Source: an uncultured Dehalococcoidia bacterium
GTDB lineage: Bacteria > Chloroflexota > Dehalococcoidia > Lucifugimonadales > UBA2985
DNA length: 25,931 nucleotides
NCBI GenBank assembly: GCA_964452695.1
Contig: CAYVMY010000007.1
Location: 575-26,505 of the forward strand
Reading direction: 5' to 3'
Position numbers and translations under genes: made by a program. The notes beneath the pieces are model-generated. The model searched no databases, was not told where the DNA came from, and worked only from the letters and a program-made list of their open reading frames with translations. Of this stretch, positions 39 to 17,613 are shown piece by piece (within the stretch, counting starts at the first letter, position 1; every line of letters begins with the position of its first letter).

Positions 39-1142
39 TTAGCGGTCCACCTCTCCCATGTTTATATCTATGCTACCCATGGTAACTATCATATCGGACA
101 ACTTACCTCCGACGAGTAAATCTTTAATGGAGGTCAAGTTTATAAGGGATGGTGATCTAATTTTACACCTGTAAGGCGCTATCCCACCGTTACTAACTAG
201 ATAGAATCCCAATTCCCCTTTTGGTCCCTCGACATGGTCGTAGGCATCTCCTACAGGAGGCCTTACTAACCATGGTACGTCTGCCTTCACCGGACCAGGG
301 CTAATTTGTTTGACACATTCTTGAACTATACGCAGCGACTGCCTCATCTCTTCAATCCTCATAAGGTAGCGGTCGTAATTATCCCCAACCGTCCCGAGAG
401 GTACGTCAAATTCTATCCTGTCATATATCTCATACGGATCCACCTTACGTAGGTCCCAATCGACACCAGAGGCCCTAAGCACTGGACCAGTGATAGAACA
501 ATCTACAGCGGTATCGGCAGGAAGAACACCTACGCCCTTAGTACGAGTCAAGAGGATTTCGTTCCCGGACAGAAGTTGTTCATATTCATCTATGTAGTTA
601 GGCATATCCACCAGAAATTTGTCCAACGCGACCCAGAATTCATCAGGAGCATCCTGAAACACTCCACCTACACGCATATAGCTGAACGTGACCCTGGCGC
701 CACAAAGCATCTCGAAAAGATCCAACACACGCTCTCTCTCTCTGAAACAGTACATCAAAGGGGTCCCAAAAGCCCCTAAGTCCTGAAGAAGGAATCCAGT
801 GGCAACCAAGTGGCTAGCCACCCTCTGAAGCTCCGCTGAAATAACCCTCAAATACATTGCTCTATCCGGGGGTTGTACGCCTGCAAGCTTCTCTACTGAT
901 CTCACGTATGCCAGGTTATTGGACATAGAGGCCACATAGTCCAGACGATCCGTTAAGGTGACTACCTGAGAGTACGTCCTCTCCTCGGCAAGTTTTTCAG
1001 AGCCTCTGTGAAGGTATCCAAACACAGGCTCAAGATCCTGTATAACTTCTCCATCGAAGGTAACCCTCAGCCTGAATACACCATGTGTACTAGGATGTTG
1101 CGGGCCTATATTTACAGTAACTGGCTCTGTTCGTATTGGCAT
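39..1142 (-). CDS. nuoD: NADH-quinone oxidoreductase subunit D
   Basis: NIGPQHPSTHGVFRL, GYLHRGSEKLAE, DRLDYVAS, GEVDR C-terminus; follows nuoC. Confidence 0.97.
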   Translation of the reverse strand: MPIRTEPVTVNIGPQHPSTHGVFRLRVTFDGEVIQDLEPVFGYLHRGSEKLAEERTYSQVVTLTDRLDYVASMSNNLAYVRSVEKLAGVQPPDRAMYLRVISAELQRVASHLVATGFLLQDLGAFGTPLMYCFRERERVLDLFEMLCGARVTFSYMRVGGVFQDAPDEFWVALDKFLVDMPNYIDEYEQLLSGNEILLTRTKGVGVLPADTAVDCSITGPVLRASGVDWDLRKVDPYEIYDRIEFDVPLGTVGDNYDRYLMRIEEMRQSLRIVQECVKQISPGPVKADVPWLVRPPVGDAYDHVEGPKGELGFYLVSNGGIAPYRCKIRSPSLINLTSIKDLLVGGKLSDMIVTMGSIDINMGEVDR

Positions 1143-4268: not shown

Positions 4269-4763
4269 ATGCCTCGCGTAAAAAAACCTACAAGAATGAA
4301 AGCCGAATCGAAAACAATCTCAGTGAATCGTCGGGCACGAAGAGATTACGAAATCCTTGAAACCCTAGAGGCCGGGTTAGTGTTAACTGGTACTGAGATC
4401 AAATCGCTAAGGCTAGGAAGAGTGAATATCCAACAATCTTTCGCAAGAGCGTCCGACACGAGCCTTTGGCTATATCAAACCCATATAGCAGAGTACAATC
4501 AAGGCAATATTTATAATCACGAGCCAACCAGACCTAGAAAACTCTTGCTCCACAAAAAACAGATGCGGCAGTTAATGGATTCCATATCTCAAAAGGGGCT
4601 GACCATTGTTCCTCTCAAGATATACATCAAGGGCCATTATGCAAAAGTTGAACTTGGATTGGCTAAAGGGCGTAGACTTTACGACAAAAGACAGGTGATT
4701 GTAGATAGAGATAAGGCTCGTGAAGCAGACAGAGACATGAGTAGAATTGCTCACGGGCGCTGA
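4269..4763 (+). CDS. smpB: SsrA-binding protein SmpB
   Basis: NRRARRDY, EAGLVLTGTEIKSLR, RPRKLLLHK, KGRRLYDKR; adjacent to tmRNA. Confidence 0.97.
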   Translation: MPRVKKPTRMKAESKTISVNRRARRDYEILETLEAGLVLTGTEIKSLRLGRVNIQQSFARASDTSLWLYQTHIAEYNQGNIYNHEPTRPRKLLLHKKQMRQLMDSISQKGLTIVPLKIYIKGHYAKVELGLAKGRRLYDKRQVIVDRDKAREADRDMSRIAHGR

Positions 4764-4777
4764 CAAAGAAATCTGTG

Positions 4778-4786
4778 TGATATAAT
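4778..4786 (+). promoter_or_regulatory. Extended -10 promoter of ssrA
   Basis: TGATATAAT ends 10 nt before the mature tmRNA 5' end. Confidence 0.55.
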
Positions 4787-4796
4787 TCGATCACTA

Positions 4797-5151
4797 GGGG
4801 ACGCGCGGATTCGACAGGGGGTGCCTCTTCCAGATTGCAGGCCGAGGTTCCGTCACCCTCGTAAATCAGACGGGAAACTGTAACTGGCGATAACAAACTC
4901 GCCGCTGCTGCCTAAATAAGGTAGCGCCGTCCATCCTAGCCTACCCTCGAGGGTGTGGCATGGGCGTCATAAAATCGAGGTGCGATATCCAGATGCAGAT
5001 ACGGATCATCTAAGTAAATATCTGTTGGCCTCAGAGAAACCCTAGCCGCGTGAGGTTCTCTGAGGTGAGAATTTTCACTCGGACAAGCCTGTAGTACATC
5101 TCCGGAGAGATCTCTTTGGACGGGGGGTTCGACTCCCCCCCGTCTCCACCA
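4797..5151 (+). ncRNA. ssrA: tmRNA; tag peptide (A)GDNKLAAAA at 4886-4915
   Basis: 5' GGGGACG...GGATTCGAC; 3' GGTTCGACTCCC T-arm; CGTCTCC-A-CCA pairs with GGGGACG; TAACT precedes resume codon GGC; follows smpB. Confidence 0.97.
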
Positions 5152-10094: not shown

Positions 10095-10880
10095 TCAATC
10101 TACCTGGATAGTTACCTCGCCACCTGAAAATGCTGTTACTGTGCCGTTGTCCATCTTAACTACCAGACTGCCCGATTCATTAACTCCTAAAGCATGTCCC
10201 TCAAATTTTTCAGACAAAGCCAGTACAGTTACACGTTTGCCAATCGTATCTATCAAATCCTCCCATTCACTCACAATCGATATGCCATTCTTGATTCTTT
10301 CGTAAGATGTTTCCATTTGCTCAATTAGCACGCGCATTGTCTCCAGACGTGATACATCGTGTCCAATTTCATTTCTTATACTAGTGGCGATATCGACAAT
10401 TGAGTCGTGACTTGTTGGATCAAAGTTTACATTAATGCCAATGCCTATCAAACAAAATTCTACACTATCCCCATCAATTTCATTTTCTATCAGTATTCCT
10501 GCCACTTTTTTCCCACCGATTCTTACATCGTTAGGCCACTTAACGGTCGGATTGAGTGGAAATCCAGAAATACGTTTTATTGCATGCACGATTGATGTAG
10601 CTGCCATCATACTCAACTGAGGAAGCCATACAATGTTTGGCCTGAGAATCACAGTTAAATACAGGTTAAGGCCAGGTGGGGATATCCATTGCCTATTAAA
10701 TCTTCCTCTTCCAAACGATTGCTCTTCGGCTATTACCAACGTCCCCTCCTCACAGCCCTCTACAGCTAGCTTCCTTGCCTGATCCATAGTAGACGAGGTT
10801 CTTTCCATATATAAAACACGATTACCAAATGAAATATTCTTCAATGACTCCCTAATTACCACTTCATTCAGATCGCTCAT
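10095..10880 (-). CDS. birA: Biotin--[acetyl-CoA-carboxylase] ligase without an N-terminal HTH
   Basis: TSSTMD, GRGR, KWPND, KVAGIL, GIGIN. Start at ATG 10880 (10901 is an alternative). Confidence 0.93.
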   Translation of the reverse strand: MSDLNEVVIRESLKNISFGNRVLYMERTSSTMDQARKLAVEGCEEGTLVIAEEQSFGRGRFNRQWISPPGLNLYLTVILRPNIVWLPQLSMMAATSIVHAIKRISGFPLNPTVKWPNDVRIGGKKVAGILIENEIDGDSVEFCLIGIGINVNFDPTSHDSIVDIATSIRNEIGHDVSRLETMRVLIEQMETSYERIKNGISIVSEWEDLIDTIGKRVTVLALSEKFEGHALGVNESGSLVVKMDNGTVTAFSGGEVTIQVD

Positions 10881-10983
10881 AGTATCAACACCCATATACA
10901 TCTCTCATGATTTTATTCCGGACTGTCGGCATCATTAACTGAGTCTTTTTGACATCAAAGCAATAAGGGTAAATGGCAGGTTA

Positions 10984-11386
10984 ATAGGTAAGCCTGTAAG
11001 CCGAGTTCTGTGCTACCACAAATAAGTTTTATCTTACTTTATAGTAGTGGTGATCATCTATCTGGGACTCCAATTTCTTGAAGCCTCGTGCAGCCAACCC
11101 GAGGGCGAGCCAGGCTCTCTTTGCCCTCCTATTCGGCCTTGCTCCAGGTGGGGTTTAGCCGCTGCCACGTCGCCGCGTCAGCCGGGAGCTCTTACCTCCC
11201 GATTTCAACCTTACCTGCCATCCTCATAACAAACTTGTTTAAAAATGTTCCGAGAATTTGCAGGCGGTATGTTTCTGTGCCACTTTCCTTCGAGTTACCC
11301 CGACTGGCCGTTAGCCAGCACCCTGCCCAGTGGAGCTCGGACTTTCCTCCCCTGCAGATGCAGGAGCGATCACCCGGCCTACCTAT
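10984..11386 (-). ncRNA. rnpB: RNase P RNA, type A
   Basis: GAGGAAAGTCCGAGCTCC, AGTGGCACAGAAA, GGTAAGAG, TAAACCCC..GGAGCAAG, ACAGAACTCGGCTTA; P1 ATAGGTAGGCC/GGCTTACCTAT. Confidence 0.97.
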
Positions 11387-11398
11387 CAACCATACCCA

Positions 11399-11427
11399 AG
11401 TCTATCACCAGTCACCGCCCCGGTCAA
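11399..11427 (-). promoter_or_regulatory. rnpB promoter
   Basis: TTGACC (11427-11422), 17-nt spacer, TAGACT (11404-11399), with an extended TG. Confidence 0.7.
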
Positions 11428-11576: not shown

Positions 11577-12947
11577 CTATTTCCGATTAAAATTTATATC
11601 TGCAGAGTTGTCCGTTACCATAACACTCGATATCAGAACGATAAGTATGCTTCTCAAGAAGTCTTTGTCTAAAGAGTCCCACTTATCAAGTATGTAGTTA
11701 TATGTTTCCTTTTTCGTGGATTCTTTCGGCAAATCAATCAATTCTCTCATACCCACAACTGTCTCTGATATCTCCTCATCCATCCCAGCCACGATGTCTC
11801 TAAGATAGGACATGGATGTGTTGCCAAGGGCAGTGTTTTGAAGCGCCCTAATAAATTGGACCCCCAGCTTTTTCTGTGTCTTATCCAAGCGATCGTTAGT
11901 GAAGGAATGGCTTTGTAAGGCTGGTAGTGAATTATACTCCTGAGCCATGGCATCTCTAACGTGCTCAAGTACAGCGTTTTCGAGATTATTTGCCCTCCAA
12001 GTGTGATACCTACACACGCCCTGATTCGTCCTAGATTGACATTGATAGTATCTGTATTCACCCTGAACCTTGGATCCATCTTTGCGACCCCAGGATTGAC
12101 GCCTTGTTACACCAACCATCTTGTTACCACATGCTGAACATACAGCGAGACCAGAGAGCATAAAAAATTCCAAGGGCCTGCTGTTACGATCAGTCCTGCG
12201 GTTTGACATCACTTCCTGCGCTTGATTGAAAACCTGGCCATCTATTATTGCGGGGTGGTTCCGGGGAACCCTCATACCGAATCTAGTGTAAGTTCCAACA
12301 TAAGCTCTGTTTCTCAAAACATCTCGGACTGTTACGATACTCCAATTTCTACCATTTCTTGTTGATATGGATCGTTCATTGAGATGGTTTACTATCTTAC
12401 GCATACCCATTTGTCGCTTCGTATACAACTCAAATATAAGATGTACAGTGGAGGATTCATCCGGCATGACCTCAAGCTTACCAGATTTCCCTATTCGGTA
12501 TCCAAACGGCGGCTTACCCAGACCTTCACCTCGAATTGCCCTGGACATCATTCCTTCTCTTATTCTCTCTCCCCTTTTCCCACCACTTCCAGAAATATGC
12601 CAATATCTAACTATCTGCTGGAGAGGATCGGGAGTATCGTCGTCCATACACGTCACTTTGGCCCCAAGAGAATCCAATTCTAAAATCTTACGGACACAGG
12701 ATTCCGGATCTGAGCCAAGAGAACTTGGGTGTGACAACACAAGTAGAAATTCCCTGCTGGATTCCCTTAGAAACTTCAGCATCTCATCATATTGGGCTCG
12801 ATTATCACCATCTGCTGAGTCAGAAAACGTAGCAACCGCGTTATGACCCAAGCGTTGGCAAAATTCGAGGAATGACTCCTGGAGATGAGAAAGACAATCC
12901 TTCTCATACGAATCGTTACTGATGGAGAAATATGCTATAGCCTGCAT
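11577..12947 (-). CDS. Large serine recombinase-family protein with a degenerate catalytic domain
   Basis: Resolvase-like N-terminus; recombinase domain (KPPFGY, IFELY, WSIVTVRDVLRNRAYVG, HPAIID); Zn ribbon (LSGLAVCSACG, YYQC, C); typical C-terminal segment. Confidence 0.88.
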   Translation of the reverse strand: MQAIAYFSISNDSYEKDCLSHLQESFLEFCQRLGHNAVATFSDSADGDNRAQYDEMLKFLRESSREFLLVLSHPSSLGSDPESCVRKILELDSLGAKVTCMDDDTPDPLQQIVRYWHISGSGGKRGERIREGMMSRAIRGEGLGKPPFGYRIGKSGKLEVMPDESSTVHLIFELYTKRQMGMRKIVNHLNERSISTRNGRNWSIVTVRDVLRNRAYVGTYTRFGMRVPRNHPAIIDGQVFNQAQEVMSNRRTDRNSRPLEFFMLSGLAVCSACGNKMVGVTRRQSWGRKDGSKVQGEYRYYQCQSRTNQGVCRYHTWRANNLENAVLEHVRDAMAQEYNSLPALQSHSFTNDRLDKTQKKLGVQFIRALQNTALGNTSMSYLRDIVAGMDEEISETVVGMRELIDLPKESTKKETYNYILDKWDSLDKDFLRSILIVLISSVMVTDNSADINFNRK

Positions 12948-12949
12948 TA

Positions 12950-13651
12950 CTATGTTGCGTATAGAATACGACTACAACTAGGACAATGTGTCAAAGATTC
13001 AGATTTGCGTGCACTTTGTATAAGTTGCGTAGGAAGGGCAATACGACATCCCTGACAGAGCCCTCTCTCTATTTTCACAACCGACTGAGATTGACCTTTG
13101 GTCCGTAATCGTTCATAGACACCAAGATGTTCTAACTTTATCGTGGAAGAAAGTTCGTCCCTTTGTTTTTGTAATAACGCCAAGTTCTCCAAGAGTGCAG
13201 CCTTTTCTTTGACGAGCCTATCATATTCTTGCTGTTTTTCCACTTCGGCATTGTGTAGTTGTCTTTCCAACACAAGCATCTTTGCTTTGGATTCTTCCGA
13301 AGATTCCATCAAAGATAATAATTTTTCTTCTTGATCACTCTGTGATTGCCTCAGGTAAACTAATTCCGCTTGAATATCTTCTAGTTCTTTTGGGTTCCGC
13401 ACGGACCCACTATACAATCTAGTTTCCACGGCTGAGGCCTTTTCCGTAATAGTCTCAGCAGCCAATTCCATGGATTTTCTCATAGTGTCCTCTTGTCCGA
13501 ATAGTCGCTTTGCCTCCAAGGCTAGTTGCCTAATACGATTGATACGCGCATCATCGTTCAGTGCTTTGTCTATAGCATCGACCGCACTATTGGAGTGCCC
13601 GATATCGCCATCTATCGCTAGCAGTTCGTGCAATTGTTGAGCGCCAGTCAT
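12950..13651 (-). CDS. C4-type zinc-ribbon / coiled-coil protein (DUF164-like)
   Basis: Long coiled coil, then CQGCRIALP...CPSCSRIL; AGAGGTG SD. Confidence 0.9.
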   Translation of the reverse strand: MTGAQQLHELLAIDGDIGHSNSAVDAIDKALNDDARINRIRQLALEAKRLFGQEDTMRKSMELAAETITEKASAVETRLYSGSVRNPKELEDIQAELVYLRQSQSDQEEKLLSLMESSEESKAKMLVLERQLHNAEVEKQQEYDRLVKEKAALLENLALLQKQRDELSSTIKLEHLGVYERLRTKGQSQSVVKIERGLCQGCRIALPTQLIQSARKSESLTHCPSCSRILYAT

Positions 13652-13679: not shown

Positions 13680-13709
13680 ATTGTAGAAAAGTGATGATAT
13701 CATTGTCAA
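13680..13709 (-). promoter_or_regulatory. Promoter of the zinc-ribbon/recombinase operon
   Basis: TTGACA (13709-13704), 18-nt spacer, TACAAT (13685-13680). Confidence 0.7.
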
Positions 13710-16857: not shown

Positions 16858-17613
16858 CTACTCACTACTCATGGAATTTATCATGCCAGCCAAATATCCG
16901 GCACCAAACCCGTTATCTATATTCACAACGGATATTCCTGGGCTACATGCATTGAGCATAGCTAGCAACGCGGACATACCTTGAAAGTTAGATCCATAAC
17001 CTACGCTTGTAGGTACTGCTATAACGGGGCATTTTACTAAACCTCCCACAACACTCGGGAGAGCCCCTTCCATACCCGCAACGGCAACTATAACTCGAGA
17101 CTCCCGTAAAACTGGAAGGTAAGCCAGCAATCTGTGGAGACCAGCTACACCCACGTCCCAAATCCTATCCACATCATTGCCTATAAGTTCCGCTGTGAGC
17201 GCAGCTTCCTCAGCAATCGGTATATCGCTAGTCCCAGCTGCAACTATGGATATTCCTTTACGTTTGTCGTCTATTCCACCCATTCCAACTACAATGGCTT
17301 TGGCAATTTCACTGTATATTGCAGTTGGAATTATACTTTTTACTGCCTCATAGGCTGGGTATTCTACTCTGGTAATAAGTAATTTGGAGGAAACTTCGTC
17401 TATACTAGTCGCTATATCCGCGAGCTGTTGTAAAGTTTTCCCAGGCCCATACACAACCTCCGGGAACCCCATTCGTAAATTCCTGTGGTGATCCACTTTC
17501 GCGAATCCAATATCTTGAAATGGAAGTATGCTTAGACTTTCCATCGCCTCACTAATAGAAAGACGGCCATTCTTCACCTCAAGCAAAAGCGATTCAATTC
17601 GATCCGTGTCTAT
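16858..17613 (-). CDS. larB: Nickel-pincer cofactor biosynthesis protein LarB (AIR carboxylase-like)
   Basis: AKVDHHR, GFPEVVYGPGKT, AGTSDIPIAEEA, DVGVAGLHRL, AGMEGALPSVVGGL, PTSVGYG, VNIDNGFGA. Start proposed at ATA 17613; the ORF track uses TTG 17586. Confidence 0.9.
   Translation of the reverse strand: MDTDRIESLLLEVKNGRLSISEAMESLSILPFQDIGFAKVDHHRNLRMGFPEVVYGPGKTLQQLADIATSIDEVSSKLLITRVEYPAYEAVKSIIPTAIYSEIAKAIVVGMGGIDDKRKGISIVAAGTSDIPIAEEAALTAELIGNDVDRIWDVGVAGLHRLLAYLPVLRESRVIVAVAGMEGALPSVVGGLVKCPVIAVPTSVGYGSNFQGMSALLAMLNACSPGISVVNIDNGFGAGYLAGMINSMSSE

What the first reader, a model, noticed from the sequence alone, without database searches (positions are those of the whole stretch)
11577..12947. 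Full-length large serine recombinase lacking its catalytic arginines, embedded in a housekeeping operon
Seen: the Y-x-R-x-S motif reads Y6-F-S8-I-S10 (Ser kept, Arg lost). The L-D-R-L-x-R motif reads P-S-S-L-G-S (74-79), losing Asp and both Args. The recombinase DNA-binding domain, four Zn-ribbon Cys and the C-terminal region are intact over 456 aa with no frameshift. The ATG is 2 nt after the DUF164 stop and rnpB follows, with no phage, IS or cargo genes nearby. Known: R8, R68 and R71 (gamma-delta numbering) are needed for serine recombinase catalysis. Inference: this is a domesticated, catalytically dead recombinase kept as a DNA-binding or architectural factor, or as a regulator of active recombinases.
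Basis: partly seen in the sequence, partly recalled or inferred. Interest (0 to 1): 0.66.

Follow-up and report, generated by a model that had tools for sequence, protein, structure and literature searches.

The report
Dead serine integrase kept as host gene
This gene has the full build of a phage-type DNA integrase but lacks its cutting residues. Marine Dehalococcoidia bacteria inherit it as an ordinary single-copy gene locked behind a zinc-ribbon partner gene, so it has probably become a non-cutting nucleic-acid-binding protein whose job is still unknown.

Summary
The gene lies on the minus strand (11577-12947, 456 aa). It reads Y6-F-S8-I-S10 and P74-S-S-L-G-S79, and has four invariant zinc-ribbon Cys. 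It starts 2 nt after the DUF164 stop and ends 191 nt before rnpB.

The correction is that Ser10 is in register with the nucleophile but is not conserved. The 88% and 75% identical orthologues have Asn there, and only 13 of 177 family members have Ser.

The whole family lacks the D67, R68 and R71 equivalents. Its 16 nearest active relatives keep all of them. The dead proteins form one clade (support 99).

The gene is single-copy in 167 of 301 Dehalococcoidia genomes sampled, all-or-none by taxonomic family, and was not found in other Chloroflexota classes sampled. dN/dS is 0.11-0.14, and 0.13-0.19 in the dead domain.

A DUF164/CT398-like gene lies directly upstream in 76 of 78 species representatives. 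rnpB follows in 52 of 80. Genomes without the gene have DUF164-(rnhA)-rnpB, so the rnpB link comes from DUF164.

The likeliest role is a non-catalytic DNA-binding partner of an RNA-polymerase-associated protein. That role is inferred, not shown.

Earlier follow-ups in this scan reached the same reading on other genomes. I found no paper describing the family.

The parts
13680..13709 (-). Near-consensus sigma-70-type promoter (TTGACA-18-TACAAT) of the two-gene DUF164 / recombinase-like unit
   Evidence: One search finds an 11/12 match. A TTGACA hexamer followed by TA[CG]AAT stands about 47-67 nt before the DUF164 start in most of the 58 loci read. The -35 hexamer with its flanks is enriched: 30 of 53 upstream regions hold the core heptamer, against at most 9 in shuffles.
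12950..13651 (-). DUF164 / CT398-HP0958-MSMEG_4306-type protein (coiled-coil hairpin plus C4 zinc ribbon), 233 aa; the conserved upstream partner gene
   Evidence: Pfam CT398_CC 42.9 bits and Zn_ribbon_9 41.3 bits, both over cut-off. phmmer matches 4ilo CT398 at 1.2e-9, 3na7 HP0958 at 2.2e-8 and 5y05 MSMEG_4306 at 4.9e-6. It lies directly upstream of the recombinase-like gene in all 20 loci, 32 of 33 and 76 of 78 assessable loci.
12579..12947 (-). Residues 1-123: resolvase-fold N-terminal domain without the catalytic residues (S8, S75, S76 and S79 stand where R8, D67, R68 and R71 are expected; S10 sits at the nucleophile site but is not conserved)
   Evidence: Fold: Z 13.4 with rmsd 1.8 A over 99 residues to 6dgc, and Z 11.3 to the Sin catalytic domain 3pkz. 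dN/dS 0.13-0.19.
12498..12578 (-). Residues 124-150: helix E and the G-K-P-P-x-G-Y linker; the most conserved segment of the family
   Evidence: Mean pairwise identity 0.59 over 145 orthologues. I129, M133, A137, G140, G142, L143, G144, P146, G149 and Y150 are invariant or nearly so.
12183..12497 (-). Residues 151-255: recombinase domain (the DNA-binding domain of large serine recombinases)
   Evidence: PF07508 at 6.7e-20. dN/dS 0.05-0.10. Mean pairwise identity 0.53.
11943..12182 (-). Residues 256-335: recombinase zinc beta-ribbon domain with Cys270, Cys273, Cys303 and Cys312
   Evidence: PF13408 at 1.5e-14. The four Cys are invariant. Mean pairwise identity 0.57.
11718..11942 (-). Residues 336-410: two long antiparallel helices, the coiled-coil motif of large serine recombinases; the sequence is poorly conserved except at the tip (A373, G375)
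   Evidence: AF2 helices 346-373 and 379-403. Mean pairwise identity 0.22. Tip residues.
11577..11717 (-). Residues 411-456 and the stop codon: C-terminal helices and strands that return to the zinc-ribbon domain (W423, V444, D446 conserved)
11399..11427 (-). Promoter-like site of rnpB's own (TTGACC-17-TAGACT with TG), conserved in the closest relatives
   Evidence: The aligned block is conserved in L054, L055 and L056.
10981..11385 (-). RNase P RNA gene (bacterial class A), 191 nt downstream on the same strand
   Evidence: RF00010, 293.6 bits, full model. Abundant in four marine metatranscriptomes.
10095..10901 (-). Biotin-protein ligase gene birA, the next gene of the conserved neighbourhood
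   Evidence: TIGR00121 at 9.2e-50. Downstream of rnpB in 25 of 80 species representatives.

Best explanation
The gene encodes a domesticated, catalytically dead large serine recombinase (LSR).

Origin. An integrase of one Chloroflexota LSR lineage (N-terminus like A-V-G-Y-F-R-V-S) came to lie between a DUF164/CT398-type gene and rnhA/rnpB in an ancestor within class Dehalococcoidia. It lost the nucleophile Ser and the Asp/Arg residues that activate it. It has been inherited vertically since, as a single-copy host gene.

What is kept. Helix E, the recombinase domain and the zinc-ribbon domain are under the strongest constraint. These are the parts that hold DNA in active LSRs. The resolvase-fold N-terminal domain and the coiled coil are also kept, but evolve faster.

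Expression. The gene sits 2 nt after the DUF164 stop and behind a near-consensus promoter, so the two proteins are very probably made together.

Likely action (inferred). The protein binds a conserved nucleic-acid target, probably DNA, as a dimer or higher oligomer without cutting it. It probably works with the DUF164 protein, whose relatives associate with RNA polymerase. That would make it a site-specific adaptor or architectural factor for transcription.

Shown and inferred. Shown here: loss of the catalytic residues, retention of the fold, purifying selection, vertical single-copy inheritance, the fixed gene pair and the single origin. Inferred: DNA binding, physical contact with DUF164 and any link to RNA polymerase.

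Confidence. The figure of 0.6 is for the whole statement. I put about 0.9 on 'dead, domesticated and under selection' and about 0.4-0.45 on the DNA-binding partner mechanism.
For: Catalytic residues. In 177 family members the nucleophile site is Ser in 13 and the R8 site is Arg in 47. The R68 site is Arg in 5 and His in 104. The D67 and R71 sites show essentially no Asp or Arg. In the 16 nearest active relatives the same sites are S 16/16, R 15/16, D 15/16, R 16/16 and R 16/16 (alignment).

Single origin. 93 dead proteins sit on one side of a branch with SH-aLRT 99, apart from the active kin.

Fold. The AF2 model has mean pLDDT 87. It matches SPbeta SprA at Z 18.3 over residues 1-456, A118 integrase at Z 15.7 over 126-456, and serine-recombinase catalytic domains at Z 11-13 with rmsd 1.8-2.6 A over 1-111.

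Selection. dN/dS is 0.11-0.14 overall, 0.13-0.19 in the N-terminal domain, 0.05-0.10 in the recombinase domain and 0.07-0.10 in the zinc ribbon. Eighteen signature residues of the recombinase and zinc-ribbon domains are kept at 17.9/18 across 135 loci.

Inheritance. There is one match per genome in 25 of 31 relatives and in 167 of 301 class genomes. The pattern is all-or-none by family, for example 20/20, 20/20 and 19/20 against 0/11 and 0/9. The phylum-wide sample gave matches only in genomes of the same class. The gene's GC equals the window's.

Gene pair. DUF164 lies directly upstream in 20/20, 32/33 and 76/78 loci. The gap is 8 nt or less in 46 of 58 loci. The upstream promoter is conserved.

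The partner family. CT398 forms a complex with RpoN and core RNA polymerase (PMC5947703, citing Barta 2015). ML1638 and CT398 are predicted to bind the beta' subunit (bioRxiv 10.64898/2026.07.15.738315). Both were read.
Against: - No binding target was found. A k-mer search of the regions upstream and downstream of the operon in 53-55 loci gave only promoter elements and rnpB itself.
- No contact with DUF164 was tested. The tools fold single chains only, and no DUF164-LSR fusion exists; the long open frames are out-of-frame read-through in GC-rich DNA.
- Two lineages keep the LSR-like gene although no DUF164 was found. These are f17 and f109: five genomes 94-97% complete, with no match to the PF02591 HMM. 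The protein is therefore not strictly dependent on DUF164.
- Sigma-54, the known client of CT398 and HP0958, was not found in 31 genomes of the order. The RNA-polymerase link rests on mycobacterial predictions.
- Expression evidence is weak. Only two low-depth metatranscriptome contigs lie in the gene, and DNA carry-over cannot be excluded.
Confidence: 0.6

Rival explanations
1. RNA-directed role. The protein binds or helps process a structured RNA or an RNA-DNA hybrid, for example RNase P RNA, because the gene sits among rnhA, rnpB and, in one genome, SRP RNA.
For: rnpB follows on the same strand in 14/19, 10/20 and 52/80 loci. RNase HI lies directly downstream in some lineages. SRP RNA lies downstream in L053. 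HP0958 binds flaA mRNA (PMC5947703).
Against: Genomes without the LSR-like gene have the same DUF164-(rnhA)-rnpB order in 7 of 10 loci read, so the RNA-gene link comes from DUF164. rnpB has its own conserved promoter. About a third of genomes have no rnpB within 2.5 kb. No LSR domain is known to bind RNA (my own knowledge).
Confidence: 0.12
2. Site guard or decoy. The dead integrase occupies the attachment site once used by its active ancestor, or titrates partners of active LSRs. It thereby blocks integration or excision of mobile elements.
For: The nearest active relatives occur in the same lineage (L057 in a genome of the same family). The DNA-binding domains and the coiled coil that control synapsis are retained.
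Against: The gene itself is the only resolvase-domain match in this genome, which is 62% complete. Only 3 of 31 relatives carry a second LSR-like match at E<=1e-20. No conserved att-like dyad was found near the locus. Class-wide vertical retention with very strong conservation of the recombinase and zinc-ribbon domains does not fit a target that changes with mobile elements.
Confidence: 0.07
3. It is still an active recombinase or nuclease that uses Ser10, or other residues, in a non-canonical active site.
For: Ser10 is in register with the nucleophile in this particular protein. The N-terminal fold is intact. D43 and R50, the likely equivalents of D36 and R45, are often kept.
Against: Ser10 is Asn in the 88% and 75% identical orthologues and is variable across the family. 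The R8, D67, R68 and R71 equivalents are all absent here. Mutants at these positions in resolvases are severely defective (my own knowledge of Tn3, gamma-delta and Sin mutant studies). No alternative polar residue is conserved class-wide in the N-terminal domain: the local signature falls to 3-7 of 12 in other lineages.
Confidence: 0.03
4. It is a decaying remnant of a prophage or island integrase with no function.
For: The catalytic residues are lost and Pfam Resolvase scores just under its cut-off.
Against: The frame is intact over 456 aa here and in all orthologues read (no stops inside any match). dN/dS is 0.11-0.14. The gene is single-copy with fixed synteny across a class. GC is ameliorated. 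No mobile-element genes are nearby.
Confidence: 0.01

Closest known systems
Large serine recombinases / serine integrases (SPbeta SprA 9y66/9dxd, Listeria A118-LI integrase 4kis, Bxb1 Int 9iu2, PhiC31 Int 9rah)
   Same: The domain order is the same: resolvase-fold N-terminal domain, helix E, recombinase domain, Cys4 zinc beta-ribbon and an embedded coiled coil. The match is Z 18.3 over the whole model, with Pfam PF07508 and PF13408 hits.
   Different: The nucleophile is not conserved and there are no R8, D67, R68 or R71 equivalents. The gene is not on a mobile element. It is single-copy, vertically inherited and fixed behind DUF164. Its DNA-binding domains are conserved across a whole class, whereas those of integrases diverge with their att sites.
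Active Chloroflexota LSRs with an A-V-G-Y-F-R-V-S ... G-E-R-H-V-S-L-E N-terminus (L057 protein, P0218, P0235, P0265)
   Same: They are the nearest sequence relatives of the N-terminal domain (E 1e-8 to 1e-4 in a search of 1.84 billion representatives). They share the G-Y-F start and the F-x-x-Y-C motif.
   Different: They keep every catalytic residue, are 480-560 aa long and fall outside the dead clade. The one locus read (L057) is a different contig from that genome's DUF164 operon.
Resolvase subunits bound at accessory sites II and III of res (Tn3, gamma-delta, Sin)
   Same: This is a functional analogy: serine-recombinase dimers that bind DNA and build an architecture without catalysing strand exchange. 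Structures 5cy1, 5cy2 and 2r0q appear among the fold matches.
   Different: There the same protein is catalytically competent at site I. Here the protein cannot be competent at any site. No accessory-site array was found.
CT398 (CdsZ) / HP0958 (FlgZ) / MSMEG_4306-Rv2229c-ML1638 family, as the partner gene's family
   Same: The upstream gene has the coiled-coil hairpin plus C4 zinc ribbon. As in mycobacteria, sigma-54 was not found. MSMEG_4306 and the RNase HI gene MSMEG_4305 have adjacent locus numbers (PMC5947703, PMC7466739), which suggests the DUF164-rnhA order also exists there.
   Different: No LSR-like gene is described next to the family's members in Chlamydia, Helicobacter or Mycobacterium. 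In Dehalococcoidia a dead integrase gene lies between DUF164 and rnhA/rnpB.

Membership tests
Large serine recombinase (structural superfamily) | Domain architecture: resolvase-fold domain, helix E, recombinase domain (PF07508), zinc beta-ribbon (PF13408) with an embedded coiled coil | tested here: met
   PF07508 scores 71.7 bits and PF13408 54.6 bits. The AF2 model matches SprA at Z 18.3 over residues 1-456 and catalytic domains at Z 11-13 over 1-111.
Large serine recombinase (as an enzyme) | Conserved nucleophilic Ser in the Y-x-R-x-S motif | tested here: not met
   This protein has Ser10 in register. The site is Asn in its two closest orthologues and Ser in only 13 of 177 family members, against 16 of 16 active kin.
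Large serine recombinase (as an enzyme) | Catalytic Arg and Asp residues (R8, D67, R68, R71 in gamma-delta numbering) | tested here: not met
   This protein has S8, S75, S76 and S79. Across the family the R68 site is His in 104 of 177 and Arg in 5, and the R71 site is Asp in 69 of 177. Active kin keep them in 15-16 of 16.
Large serine recombinase (as an enzyme) | Pfam Resolvase (PF00239) match above the gathering score | tested here: inconclusive
   The protein scan gives 23.2 bits against a cut-off of 23.3. The six-frame genome search gives 25.2 bits. Most relatives carry no precomputed PF00239 hit.
Serine integrase of a mobile element | Located at the edge of a prophage, ICE or island, with variable genomic context and patchy, often multi-copy distribution | tested here: not met
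   The neighbours are housekeeping genes only. Synteny with DUF164 is fixed in 76 of 78 species representatives. There is one copy per genome and an all-or-none pattern by family.
Serine integrase of a mobile element | Recombines attP and attB sites, forming a covalent 5'-phosphoserine intermediate | not testable with these tools
   This needs biochemistry. No att-like conserved dyad was seen near the locus.
DUF164 / CT398-HP0958 family (partner gene 12950-13651) | Coiled-coil hairpin (PF24481) followed by a C4 zinc ribbon (PF02591) | tested here: met
   The scores are 42.9 and 41.3 bits, both over cut-off. phmmer matches 4ilo, 3na7 and 5y05.
Bacterial RNase P RNA class A (10981-11385) | Rfam RF00010 covariance-model match over the gathering score, full length | tested here: met
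   293.6 bits against a cut-off of 100, model positions 1-367.

The most novel reading that the evidence does not exclude
The dead integrase is the sequence-specific DNA-recognition subunit of a two-protein transcription device. Its recombinase and zinc-ribbon domains read a conserved DNA site. Through its N-terminal domain or coiled coil it holds the DUF164 coiled-coil protein, which in turn sits on the RNA polymerase beta' subunit. This would be a new kind of transcription factor built from a mobile-element enzyme. It would also give a first handle on the function of the widespread DUF164 family, whose M. tuberculosis member Rv2229c is reported as essential.
Probability: 0.25. Interest if true: 0.8.

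Novelty: new variant of a known kind. Interest (0 to 1): 0.62.

Why it matters
Serine integrases are known as enzymes of phages and mobile elements. I know of no described case of one kept without its chemistry as a core chromosomal gene, and the paper searches found none.

Here at least 309 species-level genomes of an abundant marine and subsurface group (Dehalococcoidia, including SAR202) carry one. Its DNA-binding domains are more conserved than its dead catalytic domain.

The gene is fixed next to a member of the CT398/HP0958/Rv2229c family, which is widespread, poorly understood and associated with RNA polymerase. If the two proteins act together, the pair could show what that family does in bacteria without sigma-54.

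It would also be a clear bacterial example of a recombinase turned into a DNA-binding host factor.

For annotation, these genes should not be counted as integrases or as markers of prophages or islands in Chloroflexota genomes.

Tried and rejected
1. DUF164-LSR fusion proteins as evidence of contact. Long open frames of 590-716 aa looked like fusions. In L025 and L041 the upstream part is out-of-frame read-through in GC-rich DNA, so they are not fusions.

2. The N-terminal domain as the DUF164-binding module. The two DUF164-less lineages (f17, f109) have lost the local N-terminal signature: 3-6 of 12 residues remain. But 38 loci with an adjacent DUF164 also score 3-7 of 12. The signature is lineage-specific, and the correlation failed its control.

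3. A conserved operator or att-like site. k-mers of 7-10 nt in 200 nt upstream and 250 nt downstream of the operon gave only the -35 region with its flanks, and rnpB. An inverted-repeat scan call failed on a strand argument and was not repeated.

4. Co-transcription from metatranscriptomes. Four RNA runs cover rnpB heavily. In the recombinase-like gene they give only two low-depth contigs (12517-12748 and 12569-12753), and none in DUF164 or across the junctions. This is inconclusive.

5. A Cys/His cluster as a new metal site. C30, H35 and C100 are nearly invariant among close relatives.

6. Literature. Searches for inactive or domesticated serine recombinases and for DUF164 found no description of this family. 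Papers outside the held library were not searched.
Full report
**What is in the window**

The finding's coordinates hold an uninterrupted 456-aa ORF on the minus strand. Pfam finds the recombinase domain (71.7 bits) and the recombinase zinc beta-ribbon (54.6 bits). The Resolvase catalytic domain scores only 23.2 bits, just under its 23.3-bit cut-off.

The N-terminus reads Y6-F-S8-I-S10, and residues 74-79 read P-S-S-L-G-S.

The gene upstream on the same strand (12950-13651) has the CT398-like coiled-coil hairpin and the C4 Zn_ribbon_9 domain, formerly DUF164. It matches CT398, HP0958 and MSMEG_4306 by sequence. Its TAG stop is separated from the ATG by 2 nt.

RNase P RNA lies 191 nt downstream on the same strand, and birA follows it.

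The rest of the window is housekeeping: nuoA-D, a tail-specific protease, smpB and tmRNA, pantothenate genes, surE, ftsZ and others. The gene's GC (0.441) equals the window's (0.439).

**Register of the catalytic positions**

Three canonical LSRs from genomes of the same family or order carry Y-x-R-V-S and D/S-R-x-x-R (loci L057-L059).

Aligned with them, position 8 of the protein falls on the R8 site and position 10 on the nucleophile. Positions 75, 76 and 79 fall on D67, R68 and R71. The protein therefore has Ser at the nucleophile position but none of the activating Arg or Asp residues.

The Ser is not a retained feature. The 88% and 75% identical orthologues P0002 and P0003 have Asn there.

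| Site | 177 dead-family members | 16 nearest active relatives |
|---|---|---|
| Nucleophile (Ser) | Ser in 13 | 16 |
| R8 | Arg in 47 | 15 |
| D67 | essentially no Asp | 15 |
| R68 | Arg in 5, His in 104 | 16 |
| R71 | essentially no Arg, Asp in 69 | 16 |

**A family, not an accident**

A search of 5.8 billion proteins gave 884 hits. The best 120 are 39-88% identical and mostly 430-470 aa long. Where named, they come from Chloroflexota or Dehalococcoidia MAGs, and most have no precomputed Resolvase hit.

The N-terminal 145 residues alone, searched against 1.84 billion cluster representatives, found only 157 proteins at E<=0.001. About 130 of them lack both R-x-S and D-R-x-x-R. The weakest 20 or so are canonical LSRs with an A-V-G-Y-F-R-V-S ... 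G-E-R-H-V-S-L-E start.

In a maximum-likelihood tree, 93 dead proteins lie on one side of a branch with SH-aLRT 99, apart from these active kin. Two rows that the script's pattern match labelled 'dead' inside the active group are canonical when read by eye. One inactivation in one LSR lineage is the simplest reading. The tree was rooted at the midpoint only.

**Inheritance**

The gene was found once per genome in 25 of 31 relatives, and in 17 of 19 high-quality ones.

In an even sample of the class it was found in 167 of 301 genomes (148 of 252 high quality), always as one match at E<=1e-40. The pattern by taxonomic family is all-or-none: 20/20, 20/20, 19/20 and 7/7 against 0/11, 0/9 and 0/9.

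In an even sample of the phylum, the only matches were in genomes of the same class.

A pattern scan of GTDB species representatives found 309 genomes encoding a relative. The 80 best are titled Dehalococcoidia, Chloroflexota or SAR202 MAGs, with one evidently mislabelled bin.

One genome in the class samples (G515) is unpublished.

The window's organism is marine: DNA runs of seawater and plankton metagenomes hold the stretch.

**Selection and structure**

Against the two close orthologues, dN/dS is 0.11-0.14 for the whole gene.

| Segment | dN/dS | Mean pairwise identity, 145 orthologues |
|---|---|---|
| N-terminal dead domain | 0.13-0.19 | 0.34 |
| Helix E and linker | scored together with the recombinase domain | 0.59 |
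| Recombinase domain | 0.05-0.10 | 0.53 |
| Zinc ribbon | 0.07-0.10 | 0.57 |
| Coiled coil | scored together with the C-terminus | 0.22 |
| C-terminal part | 0.20-0.27 | 0.28 |

The partner DUF164 gene has dN/dS 0.15.

Eighteen signature residues of the recombinase and zinc-ribbon domains are kept at 17.9 of 18 in 135 loci.

AlphaFold2 with an 80-sequence alignment gives mean pLDDT 87. The model matches:
- SPbeta SprA at Z 18.3 over residues 1-456;
- A118 integrase at Z 15.7 over 126-456;
- serine-recombinase catalytic domains over residues 1-111: 6dgc at Z 13.4 with rmsd 1.8 A, 3g13 at Z 12.0, and Sin 3pkz at Z 11.3.

The protein is thus a complete LSR in fold. Its nucleic-acid-binding core is the most constrained part.

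**Gene neighbourhood**

DUF164 lies directly upstream on the same strand in 20 of 20 loci of the order. It does so in 32 of 33 loci from the class and in 76 of 78 assessable species representatives. The same holds in two distant dead subfamilies (L060 and L062). The gap is 8 nt or less in 46 of 58 loci.

A near-consensus promoter stands about 50 nt before the DUF164 start in most loci, including this window at 13709-13680.

rnpB follows on the same strand in 14 of 19, 10 of 20 and 52 of 80 loci. In some lineages RNase HI lies between the two.

Ten Dehalococcoidia genomes without the LSR-like gene were also read. In 7 of them DUF164 is followed by rnpB on the same strand, in most with rnhA between and in one with birA after it.

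The rnpB link is therefore a property of the DUF164 neighbourhood. The LSR-like gene looks like an insertion into it. rnpB also has its own promoter-like site, conserved in the closest relatives.

**The partner, and limits of the pairing**

DUF164 is more widespread in the class (239 of 301) than the LSR-like gene (167 of 301).

Two lineages show the reverse. In f17 and f109 the LSR-like gene persists, with a further decayed N-terminus. Neither the protein query nor the PF02591 HMM finds DUF164 in five genomes that are 94-97% complete. The protein is therefore not absolutely dependent on DUF164.

Published work shows that CT398 and HP0958 bind sigma-54 and that CT398 joins core RNA polymerase (PMC5947703). 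A 2026 preprint predicts that the mycobacterial homologue ML1638 and CT398 bind the beta' subunit (10.64898/2026.07.15.738315).

Sigma-54 was not found in 31 genomes of the window's order, while the control genomes were positive. Any polymerase link here would be sigma-54-independent, as in Actinobacteria.

**What it most likely does**

The chemistry is gone, but the parts that hold DNA in LSRs are nearly frozen across a class. The gene is co-expressed with an RNA-polymerase-associated coiled-coil protein.

I therefore read it as a non-catalytic, probably sequence-specific DNA-binding protein that works with DUF164. It may tether or position DUF164, or bridge DNA. This step is inference.

- No target motif was found near the operon.
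- No fusion proteins exist.
- A proposed link between the N-terminal signature and DUF164 failed its control.
- Expression evidence is limited to two low-depth metatranscriptome contigs.

The rivals are:
- an RNA-directed role, weakened;
- a guard or decoy against active LSRs, weakened;
- residual catalysis, weakened;
- decay, refuted.

**Novelty**

Searches of the held literature found no description of this family.

Within this scan the same family has been noted on at least eight other genomes. Five earlier follow-ups on other genomes reached essentially the same verdict. I reached my reading before seeing them and checked the shared claims independently.

New here, as far as the notes show:
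- the Ser10 correction;
- the monophyly test against named active kin;
- the domain-resolved dN/dS;
- the demonstration that genomes without the gene keep DUF164-(rnhA)-rnpB;
- the DUF164-less lineages;
- the failed controls listed under what was tried and rejected.

Noticed in passing
L053 (G387:C14), about 1010-1275 on the minus strand: In this Dehalococcoidia genome the RNA gene downstream of the DUF164 / LSR-like pair is the large SRP RNA (RF01854, 158 bits), not rnpB.
   Followed up: no
L083 (CAYFFH010000172.1): A 6.6-kb contig from a MAG titled 'uncultured Enterobacteriaceae bacterium' carries the Dehalococcoidia-type LSR-like gene followed by rnpB and birA (42% identity to the window protein). 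This is most likely a mis-binned or mislabelled contig.
   Followed up: no
L026, L154, L156 (family f17) and L155, L157, L158 (family f109): Two lineages keep the LSR-like gene although no DUF164 gene was found in their genomes (94-97% complete). In f17 the N-terminal domain is shortened and barely recognisable, and the upstream neighbour is a divergent methyltransferase-like gene.
   Followed up: partly
L024 (G244:C1), rnpB at 559-916 (+) and the LSR-like gene at 2739-1678 (-): Here rnpB lies downstream of the LSR-like gene but on the opposite strand (convergent). This points to a local inversion of the RNA gene.
   Followed up: no
window 4269-5151 (+): smpB (PF01668) is followed directly by the tmRNA gene (RF00023, 163 bits; tag peptide GDNKLAAAA). 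The trans-translation pair is adjacent.
   Followed up: no
window 16858-17586 (-): A 242-aa protein has its AIR-carboxylase (PurE/LarB-like) domain only in residues 112-240. The first 110 or so residues have no Pfam match.
   Followed up: no
window 10981-11352, RNA runs X15-X18: Metatranscriptome contigs over rnpB show alternative joints that replace about 47-126 nt (for example 11212 to 11262, with 17 other letters between). These are probably rnpB variants of related organisms with different peripheral helices.
   Followed up: no
upstream of DUF164 in L021, L022, L028, L031, L033, L034, L042-L044: One clade shares an extended upstream block, T-rich followed by GTTGTTG, then TTGACAGCC and N17-TAGAAT. 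This is more than the bare -35 and -10 hexamers. It could be an UP-element or a regulator site.
   Followed up: partly
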